From assembly GCA_041653515.1 (NCBI GenBank), contig JBAZFG010000002.1, forward strand, positions 125,632-189,631: a stretch of 64,000 bases of DNA, written 5' to 3'. Below the pieces are notes generated by a model, which saw nothing but the letters and a program-made list of their open reading frames with translations, did not search any database and was not told the DNA's origin. The position numbers and the translations under genes were made by a program. The stretch comes from Candidatus Nanoarchaeia archaeon (GTDB lineage: Archaea > Nanobdellota > Nanobdellia > WJKC01). Shown here one piece after another: positions 10,663 to 25,490 of the stretch (position 1 is its first letter; each line of letters starts with the position of its first letter).

Positions 10663-11789
10663 ATTAAAGTTTTGAATATATTTTCTAGTAGTGGCGTGAC
10701 TTTCTTGGTTGAGTATTGTTTGGCGTATTTTTTTATTCCTTGTTTATTTTCTTTTAGCATCTTGTTGATTTTATTTGCCCAGTCGATTGATTTGTAAGGT
10801 TCGGCCAGGTCGCCGTTTTCTTTGTTGATTAATTCATTCATTGGCCTGACATTGCTGGCTATTACTGGTTTGCCTAATGCCCATGACTCGAGTATTATTA
10901 TGCCAAATCCTTCGACTGTGCTTGGGTTGACTACGAATTTTGATTCATTTATTATCCTTAATTTATGCTCGTGACTAACTCGGCCAGTGAATAATACGCT
11001 GCTGCTAACCCCTAATCGTCTGGCTAGTGCCATCCATTGTTTTTTCATTGGTCCGTCACCAACTATTATGAATTTGGTTTTCGGGTTCTTGCCAAGCACT
11101 GATGGCATTGCTTTGATGATTGTGTCAACGTTCTTGTAAAAGACATGCCTACCAACATAACAAAATTGGTTCTTCTCTTCAGTTCTTGGCGTCTTGTAAT
11201 CAGTTAAGTCTATCATGCAGGGCACAACTCTTATTGGTCGCTTAACGCCTGCTTTTATCAAGTCCTCTTTACTGGCGTTGCTGATAGTGTGAATCATTGC
11301 TGGCCTGATTTTTAGTATTATTTTTTCCATTAATGGCCCGATTATACTGAGCCCTTTGCTGACTCCGCGCTGACCACTCCAATTATTCCAGAAACTGCCT
11401 TGAGAGTAAACATCAAAGATGCTGATAACATGGGGTATTTTTAAGCAATAGGATACTGCGTGACCACTTAATGCTGGCGCGTAAGTGTTGGAGTGAATGA
11501 TATCAGAATCCTTAGCTATCTTTAATCCTTTTTTGAATGATTTAATGATGAATGAAGCATTGTTCATTAAACTCATATTCAAGTGGCCTTTGTAATCAAT
11601 TGGTTTGCCGACCCGATGGATTTTAACCCCGTTTAATTCTTCATAGCATTTAGTGCCTTTAAGTCGCTGAGTAATAACATTAACTTCATGGCCTCGTTTG
11701 GCTAATTCTTTAGCGTACTGGAAGAACAAGTACTCGCCGCCGCCGTAGATTGCTGGCGGGTATAATTGACAGAACTGGGTTATTTTCAT
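10659..11789 (-). CDS. GT4-family (GT-B) glycosyltransferase
   Basis: C-terminal 'NPSTVEGFGIIILESWALGKPVIAS' E-x7-E-type motif; N-terminal 'LYPPAIYGGGEY'. Confidence 0.75.
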   Translation of the reverse strand: MKITQFCQLYPPAIYGGGEYLFFQYAKELAKRGHEVNVITQRLKGTKCYEELNGVKIHRVGKPIDYKGHLNMSLMNNASFIIKSFKKGLKIAKDSDIIHSNTYAPALSGHAVSYCLKIPHVISIFDVYSQGSFWNNWSGQRGVSKGLSIIGPLMEKIILKIRPAMIHTISNASKEDLIKAGVKRPIRVVPCMIDLTDYKTPRTEEKNQFCYVGRHVFYKNVDTIIKAMPSVLGKNPKTKFIIVGDGPMKKQWMALARRLGVSSSVLFTGRVSHEHKLRIINESKFVVNPSTVEGFGIIILESWALGKPVIASNVRPMNELINKENGDLAEPYKSIDWANKINKMLKENKQGIKKYAKQYSTKKVTPLLENIFKTLI

Positions 11790-11825: not shown

Positions 11826-12827
11826 CTAAATATTAATTATTTCATAGCCTTTGTCATTGAATTCGAATTCAATTTCATTAGCACCTTCTTTTTTTAGCGC
11901 GTTGCTGATATTGTTTTTAGTGTCTTCTTTGCAGGCCCATATCATGCAGCCCCCTCCGCCTGCGCCGCAGAAACGAGCACCAATTGCACCGTTGTCACGC
12001 GCTATTTTGTCTAGTAATTGCATTCTTTTTGTTGTAACACTTGGATTAAGTTTAGTTTTGAACTCCCAGTCCTTGGTGATTAATTCAGCGAATTGGTTAA
12101 TATCTTCATTTATTAGTGCATCCCTTAGTTCAATAGCAATTGCTTTGGTGTCATCAAGGTTCTTGACAGCGAATTCATTATCTTGCTCATACTTGTCTGT
12201 GTGACCTTGAAGCACTTGGCTTACATGCGGCTTGCCTGTGTACGCTAGTATCATGTTGTCATTAAGGTATTTTTTGAATGATGAGCTAATATTTAGTTTA
12301 CTTACTTTAACATTAGCTCCACCAAGGAATTCTATTTGATTAAACCCACCAAAAACACTTGTGTACTGGTCTTGCCTGCCACCAATATTCTTTAAGTCTT
12401 CTCGTTCAATAAGGAAGCCCATTTCAGCTATTTCATGGTCACTTAATGTTATATTCATTAATCCTTTTAGTGCTCCTATCACGCTGGTGCTTAGTGAGGC
12501 GCTTGCGCCTAAGCCTGATTTTGGTGGTATGTCGCTTCTGACAAAAACGTCAATACCATGGTTTGGTTTTAATCGTTTGATTATTGCTTTAATTAAATCA
12601 AGCTCAGTATCATATGTTAAGTCTTCAATTGAGTTTCTTTCGACAATTGTGTTGTAATCGTTTGAGATGATTTTAATTATACTATCATTGCGCTTGCAAG
12701 CGACTGTTCTAACAAATTGGTTTATTGCTGTATTAATAACAAAACCACCATGTTCGGTTGAGTAAGGTTCAATGTCACTTCCACCCCCACCAAAATCAAT
12801 TCGTACTGGTGCTTTGCAAACAATCAT
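11826..12827 (-). CDS. GHMP-family sugar kinase (HddA/galactokinase-like)
   Basis: 'PPKSGLGASASLSTSVIGAL' GHMP ATP-binding motif; N-terminal 'APVRIDFGGGGSD'; C-terminal 'GAGGGGCM'. Confidence 0.7.
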   Translation of the reverse strand: MIVCKAPVRIDFGGGGSDIEPYSTEHGGFVINTAINQFVRTVACKRNDSIIKIISNDYNTIVERNSIEDLTYDTELDLIKAIIKRLKPNHGIDVFVRSDIPPKSGLGASASLSTSVIGALKGLMNITLSDHEIAEMGFLIEREDLKNIGGRQDQYTSVFGGFNQIEFLGGANVKVSKLNISSSFKKYLNDNMILAYTGKPHVSQVLQGHTDKYEQDNEFAVKNLDDTKAIAIELRDALINEDINQFAELITKDWEFKTKLNPSVTTKRMQLLDKIARDNGAIGARFCGAGGGGCMIWACKEDTKNNISNALKKEGANEIEFEFNDKGYEIINI

Positions 12828-12862
12828 TATTATAATATTTTAAATATAAACCTTAATAAAAC

Positions 12863-14770
12863 TTGTGTAGTTTAAGTTGTTTAATGAGGCGGGAGCATTT
12901 ATTATTATTGCTAATTTTGTTGCTTGGCGCTGGCTTGCGTTTGTATTCGTTGCGCAATGAATACTTCACTGGTAATGACGCGTTCATTCATTATAGTGTT
13001 ATCAGGCAGGCCTTGGTTGATGGCAACTTAGTTACTTATGAGCTTAGTTATGGTAATCCTGTTATTCTTGAGCCGTTGGGCTTTTATTTAGTGACACTTA
13101 TCCCATCATTTGTTCTTGGGCTTGACATAGCTTTCCTGTTAATGCCTGTGTTGTCTGGCGTGCTGTGCCTGCTGGTTGCTTATTACTTGTTAAGGGATTT
13201 GTTTGGCGAGCGAGCGGCTTTGATTGCAGTGCTGTTATTATCCTTGTCAATGGCTCATATTTACCGCACGAGCGCTAACACTTATCGGGGTGATGGTTTC
13301 TTCCTGACTGCTTTCTTGTTAACGCTTTATTATTTCAATAAGTCACTTAAGGCATCAGTTAAGTATTCAGTAGTTACTGGCTTGTTAATGACTCTTTGCG
13401 CTTCCTTGTGGAATGGTTATCCATTAGGCGTGATTGTTATTATCAGTGGTTTGATAATTAATTCAACTCTTAAGTTCTTGAAGAATGATTTTGCTAAAAA
13501 GGATTTGACTAATATTTTTGCTTTATTAGTGACTTATTATTTCACTGAGTTAATTCTTATTTTGACTGGCGTTACTAAGCGTTTGTTTTTCACGAGCAAT
13601 AACGCTGTTCACGCGGTCATTACTTTTGCGCCTTTGTTTATTGGGGTGATTTATTATTTCACTAAGCGCGTTAAGAAGTCAAGTGTTCTTGGCGTGCTGG
13701 CGGTTGTTGGGGTAGTCTTGTTGTTGTTGAATATTAATACAGTTTCATCGTTAGTGGCTCAGTCATTGTTTGAGAATACTTTGTTCTATGAAGTTGGTGT
13801 TAGTGAATTATTGCCGCCAACTTTTGATTTGTTGAGCGCGATGCTATCATGGTCTCTTTTCCTGATGTGGCCTGGCTTGTTGTTATTAGTGTTGCTAATC
13901 CTGAAGAAGCGTGACGCGCGCCATATTACTTTTCTTGTTTGGTCAGTTATAACAATTTACTTGATGCTTAATTACTCGCGTTATAATTTCATTGTATCAG
14001 TCAGCGCCGCTGCCTTGTCCGCACTGTTCATTAATTATCTTTATTTAAAGGCAGAGCAGTATCGTAAGAACGCTGGTCTTGTGCTGGTCTTAGTTCTTGT
14101 CCTGCTTTATGTGTTTGTTATTCCTTTAACAGGGTCTGTCACTAATTTGTTTAATAATCTTAACAGTGTTAGTCCGCGCGTGAATGCAGAGTGGGCTGAT
14201 GCCTTGACTTGGATGAGAGATAATCTTGAGCCTGACTTAACTGTTACTTGGTGGGACCATGGCTCTTGGGTTCAGTATTTTGCTGGTTTTCCCACAATTG
14301 CTGATAGTGTTACTGGTCAGGATATTGGCCGGATTACTCGAGTGGCTCAATTCTTGATGACTGCTAAGAATGATACTTTTAGTGACCTTGGCGCTAAGTA
14401 CTTAGTCTTGGGGGCTGATGACGTTCTTTATTCTAATGCAATTGTTAGTATTGCTGATGTTAGGGGTTTTGAGATGTATGGGCTTGACAGTGGTTATTTC
14501 CAATCAAATGATGATGAGTTGTATTTTATTAGCGGCGACCTTGTGCTCGCGCCTCGTTTCGTGTTCTTTGCTAATCAGTCAATTCCGTTGATAGAGTCTA
14601 ATGGCACTGGTTGTTTGATGATTAATTATCTTGAGCCAAGGCCTTATTTATTATTCCTTAATGATTATGCTTGCAATACTAATTATGCTCAATTAATGTT
14701 TGGTCTGGGCTTGCCTGGTTTTGAATTATTGTATCAGAATGATTATGTAGTTGTTTATAGGATTGAATGA
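12863..14770 (+). CDS. short AglB/STT3-superfamily oligosaccharyltransferase-like membrane protein
   Basis: Multi-TM N-terminus with 'GNDAFIHY' first-loop acidic motif and 'WWDHGSWVQY' variant of the STT3 WWDYG motif; start is probably the internal 'MRREH'. Confidence 0.5.
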   Translation: MCSLSCLMRREHLLLLLILLLGAGLRLYSLRNEYFTGNDAFIHYSVIRQALVDGNLVTYELSYGNPVILEPLGFYLVTLIPSFVLGLDIAFLLMPVLSGVLCLLVAYYLLRDLFGERAALIAVLLLSLSMAHIYRTSANTYRGDGFFLTAFLLTLYYFNKSLKASVKYSVVTGLLMTLCASLWNGYPLGVIVIISGLIINSTLKFLKNDFAKKDLTNIFALLVTYYFTELILILTGVTKRLFFTSNNAVHAVITFAPLFIGVIYYFTKRVKKSSVLGVLAVVGVVLLLLNINTVSSLVAQSLFENTLFYEVGVSELLPPTFDLLSAMLSWSLFLMWPGLLLLVLLILKKRDARHITFLVWSVITIYLMLNYSRYNFIVSVSAAALSALFINYLYLKAEQYRKNAGLVLVLVLVLLYVFVIPLTGSVTNLFNNLNSVSPRVNAEWADALTWMRDNLEPDLTVTWWDHGSWVQYFAGFPTIADSVTGQDIGRITRVAQFLMTAKNDTFSDLGAKYLVLGADDVLYSNAIVSIADVRGFEMYGLDSGYFQSNDDELYFISGDLVLAPRFVFFANQSIPLIESNGTGCLMINYLEPRPYLLFLNDYACNTNYAQLMFGLGLPGFELLYQNDYVVVYRIE

Positions 14771-16055
14771 GCTGGACGTATTCTTCTAATGCTTTGTCTG
14801 CTATTAGTCTTTCTTCTGCTTCAATGAATACTTTAACTGTGTGCCTAGTCTGGCTTGGTCTTAATAATACGCTTACTTCATCTGGCCTTGTGAATTTGAT
14901 GCCGTCCATTGTTAGTGCTTGAGTGTTTTCTTGCATTAACCGGTTGATTATTTTGGCCGCGACTTCTTCTTTCTCTTGATGAGTGCTAAACTCAACTTCT
15001 TCTTTGATGACAACTACTTTTGGTAGTTCATCTATTAACTCGCTTAGTTTTTTGCCTGTTTCTTTTATTATTCGCGCCATCATGAGAACGCTTAACGCGC
15101 CATCGCTGAAGGGGTAGTATTCATTCCAGTAGAAATGACTGCTTTCCTCGCCGCCGAATAACCCTTTTTGTTTGACTAATTCTTTTTCAATGAAAGTGTG
15201 ACCAACCTTGCACCAAACCATTGTTCCGCCCATTGGCTTGACTATTTTTGTTTCAATAACGCTTGAAACGCTTGGCGGAGCCACTATTACTCCTTTCTTT
15301 TTTTTGAGTATTTCTTTTGTGAATAACATTGTCATCATGTTACCGTCTATTACTCGGCCTTTATCATCAACGAACACGCTGCGGTCTCCATCCCCATCAA
15401 GTCCTGCGCCAAAGCTGGCGTTTTCACTCAATACTCTTTCCTGTAATTCATGTAAGTTCTTTTCTGATGGCTCTGGACTTTTCCCACCAAAGTCTGATTT
15501 TGGCTCATTGTTTAGGACTGTTGCGTCTAATAATTTATTGAACACACTATTAGTTAATGCGCCAGTACTGCCATTAAGGCAGTCAATAACGCATTTAACT
15601 TCTATTCGGCCAAACTCTTTTTCGAGGAATCGGGCGTAATCATTAGTGGCAGTAATATCTTGTTTTACTGAAGCGCTCTCTACTTTGTTGAAGTTATAAT
15701 TATTGAATAATTCCCTGACTTCTTTTAGTTCTTCTGGCGCAATGCCTGAGCCATCCCTCATTATTATTTTAAAGCCGTTATACTCTTTTGGTAAGTGTGA
15801 GGCTGTGATGAACACGCCAAAATCATAAGTATTTAGTATTTTATAATAGCACACTGGTCCAGGCATAAAACCGCCTTTTGTTACGTTAATGCCTGATGAG
15901 CGTAATCCTTCAATTAAGTGCTCGCCTAGTGCTGGGCTTGATTCCCTGCAATCCCACCCAATAAAACAAGTGCCTTTTAGTTTGGTGCCGAGCGCTCGGC
16001 CAAGAATGAACGACTGGTGCGTCGTGATGCCCCTCCCCCTGACGTCGTACGCCAT
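14679..16055 (-). CDS. phosphoglucomutase/phosphomannomutase (phosphohexomutase)
   Basis: 'TASHLP' active-site serine loop; 'GLDGDGDRSVFVD' metal-binding loop; ATG at 16055 preceded by GGAGGAG Shine-Dalgarno-like sequence; 92-nt convergent overlap with 12863..14770. Confidence 0.75.
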   Translation of the reverse strand: MAYDVRGRGITTHQSFILGRALGTKLKGTCFIGWDCRESSPALGEHLIEGLRSSGINVTKGGFMPGPVCYYKILNTYDFGVFITASHLPKEYNGFKIIMRDGSGIAPEELKEVRELFNNYNFNKVESASVKQDITATNDYARFLEKEFGRIEVKCVIDCLNGSTGALTNSVFNKLLDATVLNNEPKSDFGGKSPEPSEKNLHELQERVLSENASFGAGLDGDGDRSVFVDDKGRVIDGNMMTMLFTKEILKKKKGVIVAPPSVSSVIETKIVKPMGGTMVWCKVGHTFIEKELVKQKGLFGGEESSHFYWNEYYPFSDGALSVLMMARIIKETGKKLSELIDELPKVVVIKEEVEFSTHQEKEEVAAKIINRLMQENTQALTMDGIKFTRPDEVSVLLRPSQTRHTVKVFIEAEERLIADKALEEYVQLIQSYKQLHNHSDTIIQNQASPDQTLIEHN

Positions 16056-16078
16056 AAAAATCTCCTCCTTCAATTAGT

Positions 16079-17236
16079 TCACACCCAGTACTTACTGTTT
16101 TCCAGTTCCTCCTTGTCTTCATTGTATACAATGTTGCCGTCAATAATGCCGCTTGCTTTTAGGAATGGCCAGACTGTTGAGCCTTTAATTAAGTTTGAGT
16201 TCTCTTCTATAACGCTTTTATAACCAATCACGCAGAAGTCATTGATCTTCACGTTGTTTTTAATTACTGTTGTGCCGTCAATGATGCTGTTGTTAATTAT
16301 TGATTTCTGGCCTATGTGAGCGTTATCAAATATCACGCTTCCTTTGATGATTGAGCCCTCGCCTACTGTGACATCATGCATTAAGTGAGTGTTTGGGCCA
16401 ATAACGCAGTTCTTGCCAATAATGCACCCTTCTTCTATGATGACTTTGCCTTTGATTTCAGTGCCTTCTTTTATTACTGTGTTCTCGTGAATTATTGAGT
16501 TTTTTAGTTCGCTCATAACTTTATTGTTTAATTCAATGTAACCTCTTGGTGTTCCAATATCTGCCCAGTCACCTTTAAATTTGAAGCCGTGTAATGTGTC
16601 TTTTTCACAGAAGTACTGCCACATACTGCCAATAGTGTCAATGTTTTGGTTTTCATTAATGTATTCTGGTAATTTTTTATCAACCCATCCTTTGCTAAGA
16701 CCATATATTAGTGTGCTACCCAGTTGTGAGCGCGCTTCATCTGCTCTTGGTTTCTCTTGGAATGATGTTATAATATTGTTTTTTAGTTCTGCGACGCCAA
16801 ATAATTCAACCATGTATTTGTGGGGTAATTCGTATAATGCTATTGTTGCGCTGCTTGGTTTTATTGATTTACTAAACTCTTTTAAGTCAAGTCCATTAAT
16901 GTAATTATCCGCGCCTAGTATTATGAAATCATCACTGCCAACTTTTCCTACAGCATAATTAAGTCCTCCAACACTGCCTAGTTTGCCTTCTTCTTGGTTC
17001 TCAATTATTATGTTAACTTTCTTGTTAATTAGGAAGTCATTAATTTTTAGTTGTTTGTTATTAATGCTGACATAAATTTCATTAATTCCTGCTTCGTTTA
17101 GTTTGTTGATTAAGTGAATGATATTTGGCACGCCTGCTATTGGTAGTAAGCATTTAGGTGTTCTTAGTGTTAGTGGGTGTAATCTTGTTCCGCCGCCGCC
17201 TGCTAGTATTAGTGCTTTCACTGAACGCCACCCCAT
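16079..17236 (-). CDS. bifunctional sugar-1-P nucleotidyltransferase / left-handed beta-helix acyltransferase (archaeal GlmU-like)
   Basis: N-terminal 'LILAGGGGTRLHPLT'; C-terminal hexapeptide repeats 'IKGKVIIEEGCIIGKNCVIGPNTHLMHDVTVGEGSIIKGSVI'. Confidence 0.65.
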   Translation of the reverse strand: MGWRSVKALILAGGGGTRLHPLTLRTPKCLLPIAGVPNIIHLINKLNEAGINEIYVSINNKQLKINDFLINKKVNIIIENQEEGKLGSVGGLNYAVGKVGSDDFIILGADNYINGLDLKEFSKSIKPSSATIALYELPHKYMVELFGVAELKNNIITSFQEKPRADEARSQLGSTLIYGLSKGWVDKKLPEYINENQNIDTIGSMWQYFCEKDTLHGFKFKGDWADIGTPRGYIELNNKVMSELKNSIIHENTVIKEGTEIKGKVIIEEGCIIGKNCVIGPNTHLMHDVTVGEGSIIKGSVIFDNAHIGQKSIINNSIIDGTTVIKNNVKINDFCVIGYKSVIEENSNLIKGSTVWPFLKASGIIDGNIVYNEDKEELENSKYWV

Positions 17237-18051
17237 TCCCTGATAGCCCTCTCGTAACGCTCTGTGTTATCGGTTGGGAGCCATTGGCCTTCGAATGGGT
17301 AACCGTTTAGTTTGCCTTTTTCCTGTATTTTTGGGAAGATGTCATATTCCATTGAGGTAGGGCCTGTTTCATTAATCATGCTGATTATTGATGGGTCAAG
17401 CACGTACACGCCTGCGTTGATTAGTTTACTTACTGGTTCAGTTGGTTTCTCAATGAAATTAGTTATTACTGGGCCTTTTAGTAATGCGACGCCAAAGCTT
17501 GATGGGTCATCAACAGTTGTTAGTGCGATTGTTGCTTGACCTCCATTCTTTCGGTGGAAGTCAAATAAGCTTTCAATATCAATGTTAACTAAGTTGTCGC
17601 CGTTAAGCATTATGAATGGTTCGTTTAGCCATTCTTTGGCTAACCTGAGACAACCTGCTGTTCCTAATGGTTCATCTTCCATTATATATCTTAGTTTGAC
17701 TCCGAACTTGCTGCCGTCTCCAAAGTAATCTTTTACTTTTTCGCCAAGGTACCCGACAGATAGTGTTATGTCGCGAACTTCGTGCTTCCGGAGGAGGCTT
17801 ATTGTGTGTTCGATTAATGGTCTTCCTTGAACAGGTACCATTGGCTTGGGTATTTCGTAAGTTATTGGTCTGAGGCGTGTTCCTTTGCCGCCTGCTAGTA
17901 TTAGTGCTTTTTTAGGGCTTTTTCTGTCAAGGGCTTTTCTTAGTAAAAATTCAATAGCGTGACTGCGGTTCCTAATGCGGACGCCGTCAACAAAAGCATC
18001 AATATCATTTGTAAGTGATTGGTCGACTGTTATAGTGATTCTATCACGCAT
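17218..18051 (-). CDS. sugar-1-phosphate nucleotidyltransferase with N-terminal ribbon-helix-helix (CopG/MetJ-like) domain
   Basis: Residues 1-45 'RITITVDQSLTNDIDAFVDG...NRSHAIEFLLRKAL' fit a beta-strand/helix/helix RHH pattern; then 'ALILAGGKGTRLRPITYEIPKPMV' nucleotidyltransferase core; 19-nt overlap with the downstream gene. Confidence 0.6.
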   Translation of the reverse strand: MRDRITITVDQSLTNDIDAFVDGVRIRNRSHAIEFLLRKALDRKSPKKALILAGGKGTRLRPITYEIPKPMVPVQGRPLIEHTISLLRKHEVRDITLSVGYLGEKVKDYFGDGSKFGVKLRYIMEDEPLGTAGCLRLAKEWLNEPFIMLNGDNLVNIDIESLFDFHRKNGGQATIALTTVDDPSSFGVALLKGPVITNFIEKPTEPVSKLINAGVYVLDPSIISMINETGPTSMEYDIFPKIQEKGKLNGYPFEGQWLPTDNTERYERAIREWGGVQ

Positions 18052-18074
18052 AAAGAGTATGAAAAAGTATTACT

Positions 18075-19508
18075 TTATATACATTTTGTCTTTTTGGCAT
18101 ACAATAAGCTAATTATTTTTTTAATTAACTTAGTGATAAAACCCCTATCCTGCTTGTCAAGCACTTTATAGTAAACCATGAGCGCGTAAAAGACTGCTGC
18201 TAGGCTAAATAAAAGTATTTTCATTATTGGTCCAGTATAAACATTAACCACTATTATTAGTGGCAATGCGCTGATTAATGACTTAACATAACTAACCCAA
18301 TTATGTTTGACATACTTACGCTGTGTTACACTCATTATTATCAGTGCGCTAACCATTAAACCAGTAAATATTATTGATGCGTTAAAAGCATTAATTAAAT
18401 AACTGCTTAGTGCTATGGTGATAATTACTTTTATTATTGAAATCCATAAAACTATTCTCGGCTTGCCTGTGCCATAAGTAATTGATTCATATATCTGATA
18501 AAAAGCCATTGCTGATAAGCCAATAGCCATTACTCTAAAAACACTTATCATCCCCAAGTACTCGCTGCCTAATAATAATGTTATGATAAAATTAGATGCT
18601 GAGAAAAAAATAGTTGCTATTGGCAAAGCGTAAATGAAAACATACTTCATGAACCGGCCGGTTAATTCTTTTATTTCCTCTTTTTTCTTATTAATAATGC
18701 TTGGCAGTAACGCGCTACTGATTGCGCCTGAGATTAATAAAATAAACAATCCTGCTTTGTTTGATAAGTCAAAGAAACTAAGCTCACTTGAATTAAAACC
18801 CAAGTATAAGTTCATCAAATAATTTGATAATGTCATAAAAATTGATGTGAAAAACATTGTTGTTGAGTACTTTAATAATTCTTTTCTCTCAGTAAACTCA
18901 CTGCCTTTGCTTAACTTATTGTAAATGACTGCATAAGCAAATAATACTGTTATTAAGTAACTAATGCCATAACCAATCACTGCGCCAGTGATTCCAAGAC
19001 CAATTATTATTAAGAGTAATGACGCAAACTTTGTGGCACTAAACAATAAGTCAACGTTCATGTAATGCTTCAAATTATTAAACCCTTGAAATATGTAGTA
19101 AGAAATATTCATTAATATGAAGAATGGGATAAACAACGCTGTTAATCTTAAATAACTGCCTAGTTCAGTATTGTTGTAAAAAACACCAATATAATCTGCT
19201 GCTACAAACACTGCTATAGCTGTTATTACACCAATTATTAACCTAACACTTATAATTTTCTTAACTAAACTAGCCATTTGCTCCTTATACTTCTGCATGA
19301 AATAAGGGAGCCCATGCTCTAAACCAAGAGTTGTTAGTTGGTGTGATAATGTTAGTATTGTAATTACTAAAGCGAAAGTTCCGTAATCAGTTGGGCCAAG
19401 TAATCTGGCAAGAAAGAATATTAATACCATTGATAGCACTGTGCTAACTGACTTACCTATTAAGTGCCAAGTAGCGTTCTTACCTACTTTCTTGATTACT
19501 TCTTCCAT
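18075..19508 (-). CDS. Wzx/AglR-like oligosaccharide flippase (polysaccharide biosynthesis protein)
   Basis: 477 aa, ~12-14 hydrophobic helices, sits inside the glycosylation gene context. Confidence 0.55.
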   Translation of the reverse strand: MEEVIKKVGKNATWHLIGKSVSTVLSMVLIFFLARLLGPTDYGTFALVITILTLSHQLTTLGLEHGLPYFMQKYKEQMASLVKKIISVRLIIGVITAIAVFVAADYIGVFYNNTELGSYLRLTALFIPFFILMNISYYIFQGFNNLKHYMNVDLLFSATKFASLLLIIIGLGITGAVIGYGISYLITVLFAYAVIYNKLSKGSEFTERKELLKYSTTMFFTSIFMTLSNYLMNLYLGFNSSELSFFDLSNKAGLFILLISGAISSALLPSIINKKKEEIKELTGRFMKYVFIYALPIATIFFSASNFIITLLLGSEYLGMISVFRVMAIGLSAMAFYQIYESITYGTGKPRIVLWISIIKVIITIALSSYLINAFNASIIFTGLMVSALIIMSVTQRKYVKHNWVSYVKSLISALPLIIVVNVYTGPIMKILLFSLAAVFYALMVYYKVLDKQDRGFITKLIKKIISLLYAKKTKCI

Positions 19509-19511
19509 TAT

Positions 19512-20279
19512 CTACTTAGGATTATTGTGTGACTTATAAATTCTTATGAAATCAATCAAGTACCTGATAGTGCTAAACCATAATTTGGCGTTGCCTTTCC
19601 AGTAGCGTGGGTGGTAATCAAATATTAATATGTATTTGATTAATTGTTTTAAGTAAACCATTATCTCTTTGTTAAACGCTTTATCCTTCTTGACACGCTC
19701 AATGTGCATCATCATGTACTTACCACCTTTATCATACTTGCCTTGCTTTGGGTAATGGAGTGTGTCGCCTTTTAGTTCCTTAATTGTTGCTTGTTTTATG
19801 ATAACTGCCCGCTCGTGGAACTTATTCACAAATTTTATCAAACCTTGTTTTGATAATTTTGGCTCACCCCGAATGAATCGTGTAGTCAGGCAGGCCTGAC
19901 TGTTATCAAATTTGAAGTAGTTCCTTCGCTTGATTAAGTAAACGTCAGCTAATTCCTCTTCTTTTATTCCTTTAATGTTCTTTATTAGTTCTTTTGACAA
20001 AAACTCATCAGTATCAAGATAAAGCACATACCAGCCTTTTTTAACTGATTTTAAACCCTTATTTCTTATTTCTGAGAAGTCCTGAGCCTTACAATTAATT
20101 ACCCTGACTTTCTTTGATGCATTCTTAGCTATTTGTATTGTGTCATCACTTGAATTATCTATCAATACTATCTCATCAGCGATTGATTCAACGTTCCTAA
20201 CCCAGTCTTTAATGTTTTCCCCTTCATTCATTGTTGGCGCCTGGACACTTATCTTCATGTTACTTTCTAATAATAGCAA
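19512..20279 (-). CDS. GT2-family glycosyltransferase
   Basis: 'VLIDNSSDDT' and 'YLDTDEF' DxD motif. Confidence 0.6.
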   Translation of the reverse strand: MLLLESNMKISVQAPTMNEGENIKDWVRNVESIADEIVLIDNSSDDTIQIAKNASKKVRVINCKAQDFSEIRNKGLKSVKKGWYVLYLDTDEFLSKELIKNIKGIKEEELADVYLIKRRNYFKFDNSQACLTTRFIRGEPKLSKQGLIKFVNKFHERAVIIKQATIKELKGDTLHYPKQGKYDKGGKYMMMHIERVKKDKAFNKEIMVYLKQLIKYILIFDYHPRYWKGNAKLWFSTIRYLIDFIRIYKSHNNPK

Positions 20280-20312
20280 CTTTTAAAAAATGATGTCCTC
20301 TATCGTGATTTA

Positions 20313-21041
20313 ATGATTAATAAAGCTGTTATTCTTGCCGGCGGTAAGGGAACCCGCATCGCTAACCCTGACATGCCTAAAGCCATGATTAAACTTAACG
20401 GAACCCCGATACTCGAAAACACCCTGCAATTGCTCGGCGGCTGCGGCATTAACGAGGTATTCATGTTAGTCCATTACCTTAAAGAGCAGATTATTGGTTA
20501 CTTTGGCAGTGATTTTAATGGAATGAAAATTAATTATGTCAACGTTCATGAAATCTTGAAATATGACCAGCCTATTGGTATCGCTGACGTGCTCGGCGTA
20601 ATGGATGGCCGCATTAACGAGCCATTCTTAATGATTCTTGGCGATGAAGTTTACGCTGGCACTAAGCACCCTGATATGCTTAAATCATTTAATCCTGTTT
20701 ATGACGCGATGATTGGTGTCATGCGCACTACTGATGAGCGCGCAATAAAGAAGAATTATACTCTGCGGGTTGATGATGCCTTTAATGTCACTGACCTTGA
20801 AGAGAAGCCTGATGCGCCTTGGAATGACTTGCTTGGCTGCGGCACTTACATCTTTACCCCTAAGGTCTTTGATTATATCAGGCAGACACCGTTGTCTGCT
20901 AAGAGCGGCCGCCGAGAGATTACTGACACGCTTAAGGTGATTGCGGCTAATGGCTTGCTCGCTGCCTTTGACCTTGGCGGCAGTTACGTCAATATTAATT
21001 ATAAAGAAGACATTGCCCTTGCTGAAAAACTTTTTAAGTAG
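20313..21041 (+). CDS. sugar-1-phosphate nucleotidyltransferase
   Basis: 'AVILAGGKGTRIANPDMPKAMIKL'; clearly higher GC than upstream genes. Confidence 0.7.
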   Translation: MINKAVILAGGKGTRIANPDMPKAMIKLNGTPILENTLQLLGGCGINEVFMLVHYLKEQIIGYFGSDFNGMKINYVNVHEILKYDQPIGIADVLGVMDGRINEPFLMILGDEVYAGTKHPDMLKSFNPVYDAMIGVMRTTDERAIKKNYTLRVDDAFNVTDLEEKPDAPWNDLLGCGTYIFTPKVFDYIRQTPLSAKSGRREITDTLKVIAANGLLAAFDLGGSYVNINYKEDIALAEKLFK

Positions 21042-21050
21042 CCCACCCGA

Positions 21051-22289
21051 TTGTTTTACTTAATGAAGGTATGCATTGTTTGTGATTACTTGCCTGAATA
21101 CCATGATACTTGGGGTGGGGGTGAGAAAGCCTCAATCAGCATTGCCCGTTTACTGGCAAGTAAAGGCGAGGCTGTGTCAGTGGTAACTAAGAAACCAAAT
21201 AAGCCTGTTAAAGAGTTGTTTAAGCATTATTCTTTAAGGACTACTGAGGACTTCCTTGGCAGTAAGGCTGGTCTTTATTTCTCGCGCTTCAAGTCAATCT
21301 GGGTTCCGTTTGATTTAATCACTTATTTCTCCGCGCTAAAACTATTCAGGCGTATCAAGCCTGACATTATTAGTCTTGGCAATTTCCGCGAGTTATCACT
21401 TTCTGTTGTCCTTGCCGCGCACAAGCTTAACATACCAGTTGTTTATTCGGTTTATGATTACTGGTTATTCTGCCCTAAGATTGATTTAGTTGATAATAAT
21501 GGTTCTTGCAGTGCCAATTGCAATAAGTGTATTTCAGGCGAGCGCTTTGGCTCATTCAAGCGCTTGTTGGTGCCTTTAAGGAATTTTATTTTTAACCGGA
21601 TTAGTTTTGACCGCGTGATTGCATTGTCAGATAACTCGCGTCAGTTAATAGCCCGGCACGGCGTTAATAAGAATAAGTTAAGGGTTGTCCCGTTGCCGTT
21701 TGGTGACTTAAAGACTGACTTGAAGTCAAGGGTTGACCCTAATCTGATATTATTCATGGGCTGGGTTCATCACCGGAAGGGCCTTAAAATCCTTGTTCAG
21801 GCGATGAACTTGCTTGCCAAGTCAAACCCTAAGGCAAGGCTCGTTGCGCTTGGAATGCCAGCTGATAAGTCTTACGAAACTGCTGTCAGGTCAATCATGG
21901 GTGGTAACGTTGAGTTAGTTATTGGCCGTAAACCGCTTGATGAGGTTAAAAAGTTAGTTGCCCGCGCAGGTATTATTGTTATCCCGGAACAATGGGCTAA
22001 CATGTCGCCGGTGCTGCTTATCGAGTCTATGTTTAATGCCAAGCCAATCATTGCGAGCAGGGTTGGGGGCATCCCGTCATTTATCAAGCATGGTGAGAGC
22101 GGCTTGCTCGCCTGCCATGACAAGCCTGATGACTTCGCGCGACAAATTAAGTTATTGCTTGACAGCCCATCACTGGCCAAGCGCTTTGGGCTTAAAGCCC
22201 GGGAGCAGGCGCTTGATAAATTTAATAAGAACAAGGTTTATTTCAAGCTAATGAGTGTTTATGGCGGTTTACTCAAGCAAAAAGCCTGA
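21051..22289 (+). CDS. GT4-family glycosyltransferase
   Basis: 'MKVCIVCDYLPEYHDTWGGGEKA' N-terminus; C-terminal 'PEQWANMSPVLLIESMFNAKPIIASRVGGIP'; GC-rich codon usage. Confidence 0.7.
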   Translation: MFYLMKVCIVCDYLPEYHDTWGGGEKASISIARLLASKGEAVSVVTKKPNKPVKELFKHYSLRTTEDFLGSKAGLYFSRFKSIWVPFDLITYFSALKLFRRIKPDIISLGNFRELSLSVVLAAHKLNIPVVYSVYDYWLFCPKIDLVDNNGSCSANCNKCISGERFGSFKRLLVPLRNFIFNRISFDRVIALSDNSRQLIARHGVNKNKLRVVPLPFGDLKTDLKSRVDPNLILFMGWVHHRKGLKILVQAMNLLAKSNPKARLVALGMPADKSYETAVRSIMGGNVELVIGRKPLDEVKKLVARAGIIVIPEQWANMSPVLLIESMFNAKPIIASRVGGIPSFIKHGESGLLACHDKPDDFARQIKLLLDSPSLAKRFGLKAREQALDKFNKNKVYFKLMSVYGGLLKQKA

Positions 22290-23286
22290 AGAAGTTTATG
22301 GCAAGTTATTCTCCGATGTTAAGGGCAAGCGGGTAATAATTAAGCCTAACTTAGTTACTGACTTGCCGGCTAATAGCGGCGTCACCACTGACCTGCGCTT
22401 AGTGTCAAAACTAATTAAGTTCCTTAAGGGTCGTGGCGCCAAAGTAATTGTGGCTGAATCAGGTCTTGCTCACACTGATAGTATCATTAAGAAACTTAAA
22501 CCATCATTTAAAGTGGTTAACCTTGACAACTGTGATCGCGTGCCTGTCAAGTCACTGACTGGCTTGATATTAAAGGAGTTCCGCCTGCCAAAAATCGTTG
22601 TTGAAGCGGACTTAATCATTAGTTTTGCTAAGATGAAGACTCACGCTCTCACTACTGTCACGCTGTCAATCAAGAACTTATTTGGCTTGTTATGTCAGGG
22701 CGAGCGGAAGAAATCTCACGTGCAGGGATTAAATGAGTCAATTGTTGATTTATTCTCAGCCCTGCCAAAAGTAGTTGGTTTGGTTGATGGCCTGATCGCT
22801 CTTGACGGCAAGTTCGGGCCAGTCAGCGGTTCGCCCCGCAAAGTAGGGCTGGTCATTGGCTCAACCGACCCGCTTGCTTGTGATTCTTATTGCGCTAAAT
22901 TAATGGGTGCTAACCCTAATAAAATCACTCACATGCGCTTGTGCGCTAAAAATTGTCTTGGCAGTTTTGATGATACTGATGTTAAGGGCTTGTCATTTGA
23001 CTTGCCGCCTTTCTTCATGCCATTAGCCAGCAAGTTATTGGAGCGTTATCGCCGGCGCAAGCCTTATTTGATGAGCCCTGATAATTGCGTTAAGTGCCTT
23101 GAGTGCGTTAATAATTGTCCTGTTAAGGCTATCTCAAAGTCAATTGAGTTTGATTACAATAAGTGTATTGGCTGCATGGTCTGCGTTGAGTCATGCAAGC
23201 ATAAAGCGCTTGGGTATAAACTTAGCCTGCCAACGAGGGTGATTCATTACTTGTTTAAGACTTTCTTTAAGAGACGGCGCAAGTAA
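22255..23286 (+). CDS. DUF362 domain protein fused to 2x[4Fe-4S] ferredoxin domain
   Basis: N-terminal region similar to 32819..33880 (DUF362-like); C-terminal 'CVKCLECVNNCP' and 'CIGCMVCVESCK' CxxCxxCxxxCP clusters. Confidence 0.55.
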   Translation: MFMAVYSSKKPEEVYGKLFSDVKGKRVIIKPNLVTDLPANSGVTTDLRLVSKLIKFLKGRGAKVIVAESGLAHTDSIIKKLKPSFKVVNLDNCDRVPVKSLTGLILKEFRLPKIVVEADLIISFAKMKTHALTTVTLSIKNLFGLLCQGERKKSHVQGLNESIVDLFSALPKVVGLVDGLIALDGKFGPVSGSPRKVGLVIGSTDPLACDSYCAKLMGANPNKITHMRLCAKNCLGSFDDTDVKGLSFDLPPFFMPLASKLLERYRRRKPYLMSPDNCVKCLECVNNCPVKAISKSIEFDYNKCIGCMVCVESCKHKALGYKLSLPTRVIHYLFKTFFKRRRK

Positions 23287-24356
23287 TACTTTATTGTGTA
23301 AGGCCTCATTGACTGGGTCATCTTGTAGATTGCTTCCTGCTGTTCTTTTGGGTAAGCATCTGATTGTGGTTTGGCGTGCTCGCCATAAAAAGTCATGTCT
23401 GCCCGGCTATCATCAGTTGGCGGGATAAAATAAGAGAAGTGGCCGTTGACGCCTTCATTTTTAACCCACTCAACGTTCGCTAGGTCACTCTTGTATGTTG
23501 AGCCCGGCAAGCCAATGATGAAATAACAATTAACACTCCTGAAGTATTTTTTCGCAATCCTGACCGCTTTCTTCACTTGTTCTGGTTTCAAGCCTTTCTT
23601 AATGTTCTTTAATACAACCAGACTTAGGCTCTCCACCCCGAAACTAACGTGATTGCAGCCGGAGCCTGAGATTGCCTTGGCTTGCTCCTTGTTGAATAAG
23701 TCAGCGCGCAAGCCGTTGGTGCAAAACCACTTTAAGTTTAATGGTTTTATCAATTCGCAAAACTCAATAACCCTCTTGTTGACTGCGTTAAAGCAGTCAT
23801 CAATTATCTGAAATGACTTAATGTCATACTCCTTTTTTGCTTTCTTTATTTCTTCATAACAATTCTTGGCGCTTCTCATCCTTAAACGCCTGTTCCTTGA
23901 CGCGCAGTAAATGCACTGGAACGGGCAGCCAAGGCTCGTCAGCACTGGGTAAGCCCACTTGCCGCTTGACCAGTTATCCCTGAACGTCTCGTATGAGTCA
24001 AATAGGGAGTAATCAGGGAATGGCAGTTTGTCATTAAAATCATTGTTAATGTTAACATTGCTCTTGAATTGGTTGAATGGGTAGCAGCACTGGACGTCAA
24101 CAACCCCTGTCACTGACTTGACTCTTGATTTTGGGTGAGCCCGCTTGTACTCAGCCTTTATCCTTTTACTTTCATTGTAAGCGGCTGAGCGGATTGAGAT
24201 TAGTGCTGTGTCATCATTAACTTTTAAGTACCTTTTTTTTGGTTTTTGCTTAGTATTAAGGTCAATTACCCGGCTTTTCTTGAGCGTGGCAATGTAAGCA
24301 AGGCTCATGTTTGGCAGGTCCCTGTTAATCCCAGAATTAGGGTTTATCAGTATCAT
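23247..24356 (-). CDS. radical SAM protein (B12-binding-like N-terminus)
   Basis: 'SLGCPFQCIYCAS' CxxxCxxC; N-terminal 'LINPNSG...MSLAYIATLKK' resembles the B12-binding segment of the two flanking class-B rSAMs. Confidence 0.65.
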   Translation of the reverse strand: MILINPNSGINRDLPNMSLAYIATLKKSRVIDLNTKQKPKKRYLKVNDDTALISIRSAAYNESKRIKAEYKRAHPKSRVKSVTGVVDVQCCYPFNQFKSNVNINNDFNDKLPFPDYSLFDSYETFRDNWSSGKWAYPVLTSLGCPFQCIYCASRNRRLRMRSAKNCYEEIKKAKKEYDIKSFQIIDDCFNAVNKRVIEFCELIKPLNLKWFCTNGLRADLFNKEQAKAISGSGCNHVSFGVESLSLVVLKNIKKGLKPEQVKKAVRIAKKYFRSVNCYFIIGLPGSTYKSDLANVEWVKNEGVNGHFSYFIPPTDDSRADMTFYGEHAKPQSDAYPKEQQEAIYKMTQSMRPYTIKYYLRRLLKKVLNK

Positions 24357-25465: not shown

Positions 25466-25490
25466 TATGATCTTTTATGATTATTTTCTT

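What the first reader, a model, noticed from the sequence alone, without database searches (positions are those of the whole stretch)
17218..18051. Ribbon-helix-helix DNA-binding domain fused to a sugar-1-P nucleotidyltransferase
The first ~45 residues ('RITITVDQSL...IDAFVDGV...NRSHAIEFLLRKAL') have the strand-helix-helix pattern of CopG/Arc/MetJ repressors and are followed by a complete nucleotidyltransferase. This NikR-like architecture would let the enzyme double as a metabolite-responsive transcription factor for the glycosylation locus. The gene overlaps the GlmU-like gene by 19 nt, implying coupled expression.
Basis: partly seen in the sequence, partly recalled or inferred. Interest (0 to 1): 0.55.

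Follow-up and report, generated by a model that had tools for sequence, protein, structure and literature searches.

The report
Self-regulating sugar-nucleotide enzyme with DNA-binding head
A sugar-activating enzyme of a tiny (DPANN) archaeon carries a small DNA-binding domain at its front end, and a matching conserved DNA motif sits in its own promoter in archaea and in CPR bacteria alike, so the enzyme very probably also controls its own gene; this family has not been described in the papers I could search.

Summary
[quoted passage not shown] The window sequence alone is sub-threshold for Pfam RHH_1 (17.2 vs 20.5 bits). A profile of 47 homologues hits the NikR RHH domain at E=2.9e-6, and AlphaFold gives a confident strand-helix-helix.

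The fusion is a conserved family of more than 120 clusters in DPANN, Altiarchaeota and Asgard archaea, and it also occurs in Patescibacteria.

New here: the promoters of these genes carry a conserved tandem repeat, TCATAC-N4-TCATAC (10-bp period). It is present at ≤1 mismatch in 18 of 37 loci. The only other hit in 263 kb of those loci is also upstream of a fused gene, and there are none in 277 kb of unfused-homologue loci. The window has a single copy (18057-18072), between a TATA-like box and the ATG. TCATAC is the E. coli NikR half-site, and the DNA-facing strand residues (R-x-T-x-T) match NikR.

Best reading: a PutA/NikR-style trigger enzyme that represses its own promoter. Ligand control is inferred and untested, and no wider regulon is visible. 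This is a new variant of a known kind.

The parts
17218..18051 (-). Gene for the RHH-nucleotidyltransferase fusion protein (277 aa)
   Evidence: ORF list and sequence. An identical protein is in public data, named 'sugar phosphate nucleotidyltransferase [Candidatus Nanoarchaeia archaeon]'.
17917..18051 (-). Ribbon-helix-helix domain, residues 1-45 (strand about 3-9, helix 11-20, helix 29-40)
   Evidence: Pfam RHH_1 sub-threshold alone. Family profile vs NikR RHH E=2.9e-6. 29/47 relatives hit RHH_1. AF2 topology. Foldseek top hit is H. pylori NikR RHH (prob 0.93, TM 0.69, rmsd 1.8 A), with a non-significant E-value for a 48-aa query.
18028..18042 (-). Codons for the beta-strand residues R4-I5-T6-I7-T8. 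The alternate residues R4, T6 and T8 are the predicted DNA-reading face.
   Evidence: Across 111 relatives: position 4 is R 90 / K 15 / Q 6; position 6 is T 70 / S 41; position 8 is T 110. They align with R3/T5/T7 of E. coli NikR.
17254..17910 (-). Sugar-1-phosphate nucleotidyltransferase domain, residues 48-266
   Evidence: PF00483 E=3.4e-46. Closest solved enzymes are GDP-mannose pyrophosphorylases VTC1/GMPPB, E about 1e-43 and 33-38% identity.
17845..17892 (-). Nucleotide-binding signature G54-G-K-G-T-R-L-R-P-I-T-Y-E-I-P-K69
   Evidence: G54, G55, G57, P62, T64, E66, P68 and K69 are invariant in 91 relatives. D152 is nearly invariant (>=90%), and E201-K202-P203 are invariant.
18057..18072 (-). 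Predicted operator: two boxes one helical turn apart, TAATAC (18072-18067) - TTTT - TCATAC (18062-18057), ending 5 nt before the ATG
   Evidence: It is the only match to TCATACN4TCATAC at <=1 mismatch in the 64-kb window (0.23 expected). The same tandem is conserved upstream of the orthologous gene in 18/37 loci and absent elsewhere.
18073..18081 (-). TATA-like box TATATAAAG, centred about 26 nt upstream of the ATG and overlapping the stop codon (18075-18077) of the upstream flippase gene
   Evidence: Read directly from the sequence. Conserved in the 79%-identical relative L003 (TATATAAAGTAATATTTTATCATAC). Its promoter function is inferred from position only.
16079..17221 (-). Downstream GlmU-like nucleotidyltransferase/acetyltransferase (NTP_transferase + hexapeptide repeats), probably co-transcribed. 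Start is GTG 17221 (4-nt overlap) or ATG 17236.
   Evidence: Pfam. Gene call on the identical contig L001. Same order in L002/L003.
14679..16073 (-). Phosphogluco/phosphomannomutase, third gene of the probable sugar-nucleotide unit
   Evidence: Pfam PGM_PMM_I/II/III. A PGM/PMM gene follows the fused gene, directly or one gene further on, in L002/L003, L006, L008 and L009.

Best explanation
The gene encodes a bifunctional 'trigger enzyme'. Its body is an active short-form sugar-1-phosphate nucleotidyltransferase, most like GDP-mannose pyrophosphorylases. Its N-terminal 45 residues form a ribbon-helix-helix DNA-binding domain. Two chains pair through their N-terminal strands to make one RHH dimer, which reads a TCATAC-type hexamer with R4, T6 and T8. 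Two such dimers (a tetramer, or two cooperating dimers) occupy the two boxes TAATAC-N4-TCATAC, spaced one helical turn apart at 18057-18072. In this window the boxes lie between the TATA-like box and the start codon of what is probably a leaderless or short-leader transcript. Bound protein should therefore block polymerase recruitment and repress its own gene, and most likely also the GlmU-like and phosphomutase genes transcribed with it. The linker is short (about 6 residues) and the RHH sits directly in front of the nucleotide-binding glycine loop. This makes it plausible, but unproven, that substrate or product (NTP, sugar-1-P, NDP-sugar) changes DNA affinity, giving feedback control of sugar-nucleotide supply. 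Shown: the domain identities, intact catalytic motifs, conservation of the fusion, and conservation and specificity of the cis-element. Inferred: that the RHH is what binds the boxes, the sign of regulation, the oligomeric state and the ligand control.
For: The RHH identity rests. The enzyme identity and intact motifs rest. The fusion is conserved: all 120 best homologues (275-318 aa) carry the same N-terminal domain with no internal Met before the enzyme domain, and it is found in about 33 species-level genomes, including 6 loci from bacterial or CPR-labelled genomes. DNA-facing residues are conserved. For the cis-element, an unbiased 6-mer count in the 150 nt upstream of 37 fused genes ranks TCATAC/GTATGA first (21 loci vs 3.1 expected, p about 1e-13), ahead of TATA-box words. 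The tandem TCATACN4TCATAC is exact in 12 and within 1 mismatch in 18 of 37 loci inside 200 nt upstream. The only other hit in 263 kb of those loci lies 237 nt upstream of that locus's own fused gene. There are no hits at <=1 mismatch in 277 kb around 47 unfused homologues. Same-orientation box spacing is 10 bp in 21 cases, and every other spacing occurs <=3 times. The window has a single hit, exactly in front of this gene. In the reverse test, 3 of 120 arbitrary metagenome matches to a 14-base version of the motif lie upstream of a fused gene. The boxes travel with the gene through different neighbourhoods and through both archaeal TATA/BRE and bacterial TTGAC-type promoters. In class-A archaeal loci they lie upstream of the TATA box, hence outside the transcript, so they act as DNA. 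TCATAC is the published half-site of E. coli NikR (GTATGA-N16-TCATAC; PMC7055735). NikR's RHH is the closest relative and shares the R-x-T-x-T strand. Two relatives with a degenerate catalytic loop (L027, L038) keep the boxes.
Against: There is no experiment, so binding of this protein to these boxes is inferred from co-occurrence only. About 11 of 37 fused loci (Altiarchaeota-type, Asgard-type, two Roizmanbacteria and others) show no recognisable box within 600 nt. The window's first box is a variant (TAATAC), and a <=1-mismatch hit somewhere in 64 kb is expected 0.23 times by chance, so the window site is convincing only together with the comparative data. A two-fold symmetric RHH dimer on a non-palindromic hexamer arranged as direct repeats is less common than palindromic operators. 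In most archaeal relatives the boxes lie just upstream of BRE/TATA, a position that can also mean activation, so the sign of regulation is uncertain. Foldseek E-values for the 48-aa domain are not significant. The window sequence alone is below Pfam's RHH_1 threshold. The substrate is unknown: the best NCBIfam model (mannose-1-P guanylyltransferase) scores 186 bits against a cut-off of 440.
Confidence: 0.72

Rival explanations
1. The protein is mainly a transcription factor. The nucleotidyltransferase fold serves as a ligand-sensing domain and contributes little or no catalysis, as the ACT-like domain does in NikR.
For: A profile of the RHH segment finds many relatives in which the glycine-rich catalytic loop is degenerate or deleted while the RHH stays well conserved. 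About 45 of 57 full-length representatives are of this kind, and two have no Pfam match at all after the RHH. L027 and L038 have such loops and still keep the boxes. The window encodes three other NTP_transferase paralogues that could supply the chemistry.
Against: In the window protein and its 90 closest relatives, every signature residue of active enzymes is invariant or nearly so: G54 G55 G57 T58 R59 P62 K69, D152, E201 K202 P203. It is 33-38% identical to characterised GDP-mannose pyrophosphorylases. The gene repeatedly sits next to phosphomannomutase/phosphoglucomutase, and once next to a mannose-6-P isomerase-type cupin, as a pathway enzyme would.
Confidence: 0.12
2. The RHH is only an oligomerisation module. 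It would replace the C-terminal beta-helix that holds long-form enzymes together, and it would not bind DNA. The TCATAC boxes would then be bound by some other factor or be a promoter peculiarity.
For: The protein lacks the C-terminal left-handed beta-helix present in its closest solved relatives, and RHH domains are obligate dimers. A third of the fused loci have no recognisable box.
Against: The solvent-exposed strand residues R4, T/S6, T8 and the N28-R29-S30 helix cap, which have no role in dimer packing, are the best-conserved positions. The boxes are found only in front of fused genes, in unrelated neighbourhoods and in both domains of life, so the fused gene is the only constant partner. 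The box equals the half-site of the nearest RHH relative.
Confidence: 0.1
3. Annotation artefact or chance: a small separate RHH gene (for example an antitoxin) has been read through into the enzyme gene, or the N-terminal extension only looks like an RHH.
For: The window sequence alone is below the Pfam threshold. RHH antitoxins next to 'nucleotidyltransferases' are common in the literature hits.
Against: The reading frame is continuous in more than 120 clusters from independent assemblies, with no start codon at the domain boundary. The family profile is significant against solved RHH domains. The enzyme is a PF00483 sugar nucleotidyltransferase, not a Pol-beta-type minimal nucleotidyltransferase toxin or antitoxin partner. 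No split RHH gene lies next to unfused homologues in 47 loci.
Confidence: 0.02

Closest known systems
PutA (trifunctional proline utilisation A) of E. coli/Salmonella
   Same: An enzyme with an N-terminal RHH domain that moonlights as the autogenous repressor of its own regulon (PMC5293562). It is the closest known analogue in logic: RHH at the N-terminus of a metabolic enzyme, with the operator in its own control region.
   Different: The enzyme domains are unrelated (flavin proline dehydrogenase / P5C dehydrogenase, about 1300 aa, versus a 230-aa sugar nucleotidyltransferase). PutA is proteobacterial, and its switch is flavin reduction plus membrane binding. The operator sequences are different.
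NikR (nickel-responsive regulator)
   Same: It is the nearest RHH domain by sequence and fold. It has the same R-x-T-x-T strand and N-R-S helix cap. Its published half-site GTATGA/TCATAC (PMC7055735) is identical to the box found here. Its architecture is also RHH plus a ligand-binding body that assembles two RHH dimers.
   Different: NikR's C-terminal domain is an ACT-like nickel-binding tetramerisation domain, not an enzyme. Its half-sites are inverted and 16 bp apart, whereas here they are direct repeats 4 bp apart (10-bp period).
Arc/Mnt/CopG, MetJ and omega repressors (stand-alone RHH proteins)
   Same: RHH dimers bind to sites on successive turns or in tandem arrays (own knowledge). CopG is a weak profile hit (E=0.028). 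Omega binds non-palindromic heptads in direct or inverted orientation (own knowledge). This resembles the mix seen here: direct repeats in most loci and inverted repeats in L011, L020 and L030.
   Different: These are small stand-alone repressors with no fused enzyme, and MetJ is the only one with a small-molecule co-repressor.
Other enzyme-regulator fusions: BirA (HTH + biotin ligase), NadR (HTH + NMN adenylyltransferase)
   Same: An enzyme of a pathway carries a DNA-binding domain and represses the pathway genes according to substrate or product level (own knowledge).
   Different: They use helix-turn-helix rather than RHH domains. The catalytic folds are different, and they are bacterial model-organism systems.
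GDP-mannose pyrophosphorylases / short-form sugar-1-P nucleotidyltransferases (VTC1, GMPPB, RmlA, MurU)
   Same: The catalytic domain is homologous and all signature motifs are present.
   Different: None of the solved or curated relatives covers residues 1-47. The long forms carry a C-terminal beta-helix that this protein lacks.

Membership tests
Ribbon-helix-helix (CopG/Arc/MetJ) superfamily, Pfam RHH_1 PF01402 | Significant sequence similarity to RHH profiles or solved RHH domains | tested here: met
   The window sequence alone scores 17.2 bits, below the 20.5 cut-off. The family profile hits NikR RHH at E=2.9e-6, PhNikR at 0.0036 and CopG at 0.028. 29/47 relatives hit RHH_1 at E<=0.01.
Ribbon-helix-helix (CopG/Arc/MetJ) superfamily, Pfam RHH_1 PF01402 | About 45-residue strand - helix - helix topology | tested here: met
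   AF2 gives an extended segment 1-10, H11-20 and H29-40/42, with pLDDT 85-95. Best fold matches are NikR RHH (TM 0.69, rmsd 1.8 A) and SvtR (TM 0.75), with E-values that are not significant for so short a query.
Ribbon-helix-helix (CopG/Arc/MetJ) superfamily, Pfam RHH_1 PF01402 | Strand with alternating hydrophobic (core) and polar/basic (DNA-facing) residues, and a polar N-cap on helix 2 | tested here: met
   R4/T6/T8 alternate with I/V/L at positions 5/7/9, and N28-R29-S30 is conserved.
Ribbon-helix-helix (CopG/Arc/MetJ) superfamily, Pfam RHH_1 PF01402 | Homodimer through an antiparallel two-stranded sheet; sequence-specific DNA binding | not testable with these tools
   Only monomer prediction is available. 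DNA binding is inferred from the conserved promoter boxes.
NikR | C-terminal ACT-like metal-binding tetramerisation domain | tested here: not met
   Residues 48-266 are PF00483 NTP_transferase. The NikR alignment ends at residue about 45.
NikR | Operator made of two inverted half-sites GTATGA-N16-TCATAC | tested here: not met
   The hexamer is the same, but it is arranged as direct repeats with a 4-nt spacer. The NikR operator is taken from PMC7055735.
Sugar-1-phosphate nucleotidyltransferase (Pfam NTP_transferase PF00483) | Profile match above the curated threshold over the whole domain | tested here: met
   158.3 bits against a cut-off of 21.2, covering profile positions 1-235 of 245.
Sugar-1-phosphate nucleotidyltransferase (Pfam NTP_transferase PF00483) | Catalytic signature GxGTRLxPxT...PK, plus the acidic metal-binding residue and the EKP motif | tested here: met
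   The sequence reads LAGGKGTRLRPITYEIPKP, with D152 and E201-K202-P203. These are invariant or nearly invariant in 91 relatives.
Sugar-1-phosphate nucleotidyltransferase (Pfam NTP_transferase PF00483) | Measured nucleotidyltransferase activity and substrate specificity | not testable with these tools
   There are only indirect hints for GDP-mannose: the best PDB relatives are GMPPs, and the neighbours include PMM/PGM and, in L009, a mannose-6-P isomerase cupin.
Mannose-1-phosphate guanylyltransferase (NCBIfam NF052502) | Score above the curated cut-off over the full model, including the C-terminal beta-helix | tested here: not met
   186.5 bits against a cut-off of 440. Only model positions 2-219 of 352 are matched, and there is no beta-helix domain.
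PutA-type trigger enzyme (RHH + enzyme, autogenous regulator) | N-terminal RHH fused in one chain to a catalytic domain | tested here: met
PutA-type trigger enzyme (RHH + enzyme, autogenous regulator) | Operator sites in the control region of its own gene | tested here: inconclusive
   A conserved, gene-specific tandem box lies in the gene's own promoter, but binding has not been demonstrated.
PutA-type trigger enzyme (RHH + enzyme, autogenous regulator) | Homology of the enzyme part to PRODH/P5CDH | tested here: not met
   The enzyme part is PF00483. The protein is an analogue of PutA, not a member of its family.
RHH antitoxin / minimal nucleotidyltransferase toxin-antitoxin modules | Pol-beta-type minimal nucleotidyltransferase or another toxin partner, in a two-gene module | tested here: not met
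   It is a single ORF. The fused domain is a Rossmann-like sugar nucleotidyltransferase sitting in a glycosylation locus.

The most novel reading that the evidence does not exclude
This is the founding example of an undescribed family of one-component regulators shared between DPANN/Asgard archaea and CPR bacteria. In it a sugar-nucleotide enzyme senses its own substrate or product pool and sets transcription of its operon through an RHH head that reads TCATAC boxes. The same protein-operator pair works on archaeal TATA/BRE promoters and on bacterial sigma-70-type promoters. The family has repeatedly decayed into pseudoenzyme regulators that keep the DNA-binding head and the sensing fold.
Probability: 0.45. 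Interest if true: 0.72.

Novelty: new variant of a known kind. Interest (0 to 1): 0.6.

Why it matters
DPANN archaea and CPR bacteria have tiny genomes, are almost all uncultured, and have hardly any transcription factor with a known binding site. This finding offers three things.

- **A testable pair.** A regulator and a precise, phylogenetically footprinted operator can be tested entirely in vitro, using EMSA with and without nucleotide sugars.
- **A new trigger enzyme.** It is a second, independent case beside PutA of an RHH-headed enzyme that regulates itself. It links the supply of activated sugars for surface glycosylation, which matters for the cell-cell contact these symbionts live by, directly to gene expression.
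- **A cross-domain element.** The same protein-operator pair sits in front of archaeal and bacterial promoter types. That makes it a natural experiment on how a regulator survives transfer between domains. The many relatives with decayed catalytic loops show an enzyme turning into a sensor.

If binding fails experimentally, what remains is an ordinary nucleotidyltransferase with an unusual dimerisation tag.

Tried and rejected
- **Palindromic operators.** The window has AAAGTA-A-TACTTT (18064-18076) overlapping box 1, but it is not conserved as such. The conserved signal is the direct repeat.
- **Wider regulon.** The other promoters of the locus (20280-20312, 12828-12862) have no box. Single hexamers occur at chance level in the window. 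The 2-mismatch hits at 8141, 25465 and 52233 were not pursued, because they are expected by chance.
- **Toxin-antitoxin reading.** Rejected because the fused domain is the wrong nucleotidyltransferase fold and the gene is a single ORF.
- **Split-gene search.** I looked for a separate RHH gene next to unfused homologues and found none in 47 loci.
- **Covariation test with the Asgard-type variants** (strand K-x-S-x-T, NLSQ cap). Five loci were aligned. They share a TATA-like CTTATATT about 170 nt upstream, but no clear alternative box emerged. The result is inconclusive.
- **Reverse motif-to-gene scan of metagenomes.** This is supportive but weak.
- **Foldseek on the isolated 48-aa model.** The right folds came out on top, but with non-significant E-values.
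- **afdb50 fold library.** Unavailable.
- **Literature.** Eight full-text searches found no paper that links an RHH domain to a sugar nucleotidyltransferase. An open-access source for the NikR Arg3/Thr5/Thr7 contacts was not found, so that point rests on my own knowledge of the NikR-operator structure (PDB 2HZV).
Full report
**What is there**

On the minus strand, 17218-18051 is a 277-codon ORF that begins at the first ATG after a stop. The identical protein exists in public data as 'sugar phosphate nucleotidyltransferase [Candidatus Nanoarchaeia archaeon]'. Residues 48-266 are a complete Pfam NTP_transferase domain (E=3.4e-46, profile 1-235/245).

The closest curated and solved relatives are mannose-1-phosphate guanylyltransferases. 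These are NCBIfam NF052502 at 186 bits (below its 440-bit cut-off, because the C-terminal beta-helix is missing) and PDB VTC1/GMPPB at E about 1e-43 and 33-38% identity. The glycine-rich loop and lysine (G54 G55 x G57 T R L x P62 ... P68 K69) and E201-K202-P203 are invariant in 91 relatives, and D152 is nearly invariant. The enzyme therefore looks active. No solved structure covers residues 1-47.

**The N-terminal domain**

- Alone, residues 1-48 match Pfam RHH_1 end to end, but below threshold (E=0.0048, 17.2 vs 20.5 bits). Their best PDB match is the RHH domain of E. coli NikR.
- A profile of 47 homologous N-termini (A1) raises this to E=2.9e-6 for NikR, 0.0036 for P. horikoshii NikR and 0.028 for CopG.
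- 29 of the 47 segments hit RHH_1 individually.
- AlphaFold2 predicts an extended segment 1-10, helix 11-20 and helix 29-40 with pLDDT 85-95, both in the full-length model (mean pLDDT 93.3) and in the isolated domain (87.0). An unpaired strand is what an RHH monomer should look like.
- Foldseek puts H. pylori NikR (prob 0.93, TM 0.69, rmsd 1.8 A) and the archaeal-virus RHH protein SvtR on top, although E-values are not significant for 48 residues.

**The fusion is a family, not an accident**

- All 120 best database hits are 272-318 aa, cover 96-100% of the query, and begin with the same [KR]-E-R-x-[TS]-x-T ... D-G ... N-R-S-H-A-x-E pattern. None has a start codon at the domain junction.
- In one genome per species (GTDB) the fused form occurs in about 33 species. 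These are Nanoarchaeia, Woese-, Alti-, Aenigmat-, Parv-archaeota, Diapherotrites, and also Patescibacteria/Roizmanbacteria on contigs of 380-940 kb. An Asgard genome (Atabeyarchaeum) carries it too.
- The outward-facing strand residues are the most conserved: position 4 is R in 90/111, position 6 is T/S in 111/111, position 8 is T in 110/111, and N28-R29-S30 is conserved. They align with R3/T5/T7 and N-R-S of NikR. By my own knowledge of the NikR-operator structure, these are the DNA-contacting residues.

**The new evidence: a conserved operator**

Reading the 150-200 nt upstream of the fused genes showed a recurring word.

- An unbiased 6-mer count over 37 loci ranks TCATAC/GTATGA first: 21 loci versus 3.1 expected from random windows of the same loci, p about 1e-13. 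This is ahead of the TATA-box words.
- The word comes as a tandem, TCATAC-N4-TCATAC. It is exact in 12 loci and within one mismatch in 18 of 37, inside 200 nt upstream.
- The only other hit in all 263 kb of those loci lies 237 nt upstream of that locus's own fused gene.
- There is no hit at <=1 mismatch in 277 kb around 47 unfused homologues.
- Same-orientation spacing is 10 bp in 21 cases and any other value in at most 3, which is one helical turn.
- In the 64-kb window the pattern (<=1 mismatch) occurs once, TAATAC-TTTT-TCATAC at 18072-18057, ending 5 nt before this gene's ATG. The whole window is expected to hold 0.23 such hits. By my arithmetic, the chance of one landing in these 30 nt is about 1e-4.
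- The 79%-identical relative L003 has TAATAT-TTTA-TCATAC at the same place.

**Where the boxes sit**

- In most archaeal loci the second box ends 11-13 nt before the TATA box, abutting the purine-rich BRE-like stretch (for example L009 ATCATACTTTATCATAC-CAAAACCAAAAGA-TTTATATA). There they are not transcribed, so they act as DNA rather than RNA.
- In the window, L003, L017, L032 and L035, and in reverse orientation L010 and L024, the boxes lie between the TATA-like box and the ATG.
- L011 and L020 have an inverted repeat of the TAATAC variant in that position.
- In several of the Patescibacteria-type loci (L030, L031, L036, and the metagenome loci L107 and L152) the boxes are in the opposite orientation; L030, L031, L107 and L152 show TTGAC-type -35 elements next to them.

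The gene neighbourhood varies: flippase/GlmU-like/PGM here and in L003; PGM/PMM in L006, L008 and L009; alone beside AglB in Asgard. The only constant partner of the boxes is therefore the fused gene itself. Finally, TCATAC is exactly the published E. coli NikR half-site (GTATGA-N16-TCATAC; PMC7055735). The nearest RHH relative, with the same reading residues, reads the same hexamer.

**Mechanism proposed for the window**

The TATA-like TATATAAAG (18081-18073) overlaps the stop codon of the upstream flippase gene and is centred about 26 nt before the ATG. That is the usual TATA-to-start-site distance in archaea (own knowledge), so the transcript is probably leaderless or nearly so. The boxes fill the space between TATA and the start site. 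Two RHH dimers on successive turns would then block polymerase recruitment and repress the gene.

The next two genes would probably be repressed with it. These are the GlmU-like gene, which overlaps by 4 nt if the GTG at 17221 is used as on the identical contig L001, and PGM/PMM, 5 nt further on. Spacing of about one turn is what cooperative RHH dimer pairs such as Arc or CopG use (own knowledge).

The sign of regulation is less certain for the relatives with boxes upstream of BRE. In archaea that position can activate, as with TrmB-family sites (own knowledge).

Ligand control is an inference. It rests on the architecture (a 6-7-residue linker directly before the nucleotide-binding loop) and on the analogy with NikR and PutA.

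**Limits**

- About 11 of 37 fused loci have no recognisable box within 600 nt. These are Altiarchaeota-type, Asgard-type, two Roizmanbacteria, L022 and L045.
- Five Asgard-type loci gave no clear alternative motif.
- No other promoter in the window carries the boxes, and single hexamers occur at chance frequency.
- The reverse scan of metagenomes was swamped by chance matches: 3 of 120 hits lay next to a fused gene.

**A wider family**

Searching 1.84 billion representatives with the RHH profile gives 242 hits at E<=1e-10. Among the 57 full-length hits in the top 150, about 45 have a degenerate or deleted glycine loop. Eight of ten tested still match PF00483, and two have lost any Pfam match. 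The RHH stays strongly conserved in all of them. L027 and L038 have degenerate loops and keep the boxes. This looks like repeated decay of the enzyme into a sensor, and it argues that the DNA-binding function is selected in its own right.

**Comparison with what is known**

- The logic is that of PutA, an enzyme with an N-terminal RHH that represses its own regulon (PMC5293562). More loosely, it is the logic of BirA and NadR.
- The RHH domain itself is NikR-like.
- It is not a member of the NikR family (no ACT-like metal domain, different operator geometry) or of the PutA family (unrelated enzyme).
- It is not a toxin-antitoxin RHH.
- Eight full-text searches found no paper that links an RHH domain with a sugar nucleotidyltransferase. 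Database records simply name these proteins NDP-sugar pyrophosphorylases.

**Verdict**

- Observation: confirmed.
- Interpretation: partly supported.
- Novelty: new variant of a known kind, an RHH-headed trigger enzyme with a newly recognised operator shared across domains.
- Confidence in the fusion and the fold is about 0.95.
- Confidence in autoregulation through the TCATAC boxes is about 0.7-0.8.
- Confidence in repression in this window is about 0.6.
- Confidence in metabolite control is about 0.4.
- Interest: 0.6.

Noticed in passing
proteins P0121-P0269; loci L027:about 3001-3846 and L038:about 3001-3837: There is a large radiation of RHH + nucleotidyltransferase-like proteins whose catalytic glycine loop is degenerate or deleted (for example LLAGGPLKIGLGKSKK, ILASKIEPFRIL), while the RHH stays highly conserved. 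These are probable pseudoenzyme regulators. Two representatives (P0191, P0199) have no Pfam match after the RHH.
   Followed up: partly
L030, L031, L036, L039, L041, L044; L107, L152: The fused gene also occurs in Patescibacteria/CPR bacteria (contigs up to 940 kb). In L030, L031, L036, L107 and L152 the same boxes lie in reverse orientation; in L030, L031, L107 and L152 they sit next to TTGAC-type -35 elements; L039, L041 and L044 show no tandem box. This implies transfer of gene plus operator between domains. L152 has a long leader containing a GC-rich palindromic insert.
   Followed up: partly
L005, L211-L214 (Asgard, Atabeyarchaeum-like): The synteny AglB(STT3) - two DUF131 genes <-> RHH-NTP - M20 peptidase - an approximately 1100-aa TrmB/apolipoprotein-like protein is strictly conserved. 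The RHH variant has K-x-S-x-T and N-L-S-Q in place of R-x-T-x-T and N-R-S-H, and there is no tandem TCATAC box. The promoter-like CTTATATT lies about 170 nt upstream.
   Followed up: partly
window 8490-9173(-), 16079-17236(-), 17218-18051(-), 20313-21041(+): There are four NTP_transferase paralogues within 13 kb of one glycosylation locus, and only one carries the RHH head. The one at 20313-21041 is most like the haloarchaeal AglF UDP-glucose pyrophosphorylase model (130 bits, below its cut-off).
   Followed up: partly
window 12863-14770(+), 11826-12827(-), 9229-10662(+), 10659-11789(-), 19512-20279(-), 18075-19508(-): The surrounding locus is an N-glycosylation / surface-polysaccharide island. 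It holds an AglB/STT3-like oligosaccharyltransferase, a GHMP kinase, a UDP-GlcNAc 2-epimerase-like protein, GT4 and GT2 glycosyltransferases and a Wzx-type flippase.
   Followed up: partly
window 23247-24356(-), 24353-25465(-), 22255-23286(+), 25491-26573(-): A radical SAM gene and a radical SAM/SPASM gene sit back to back, next to a DUF362 + 4Fe-4S ferredoxin-domain protein and a GH99/WbsX-like protein. A weak (2-mismatch) box-like TCATAAAAGATCATAA lies directly in front of the SPASM gene's ATG (25465-25480). It is probably a chance match in AT-rich DNA.
   Followed up: no
window 14679-14770: The convergent ORFs 12863-14770(+) and 14679-16073(-) overlap by 92 nt at their 3' ends as listed.
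   Followed up: no
L011:about 2975-3000, L020:about 240-263: In the 'RERISLTID' subgroup, the place between TATA and ATG is occupied by an inverted repeat, GTATTAC-N3-5-GTAATA(C/T), instead of the direct repeat. The same box variant (TAATAC) forms the first box in the window.
   Followed up: partly
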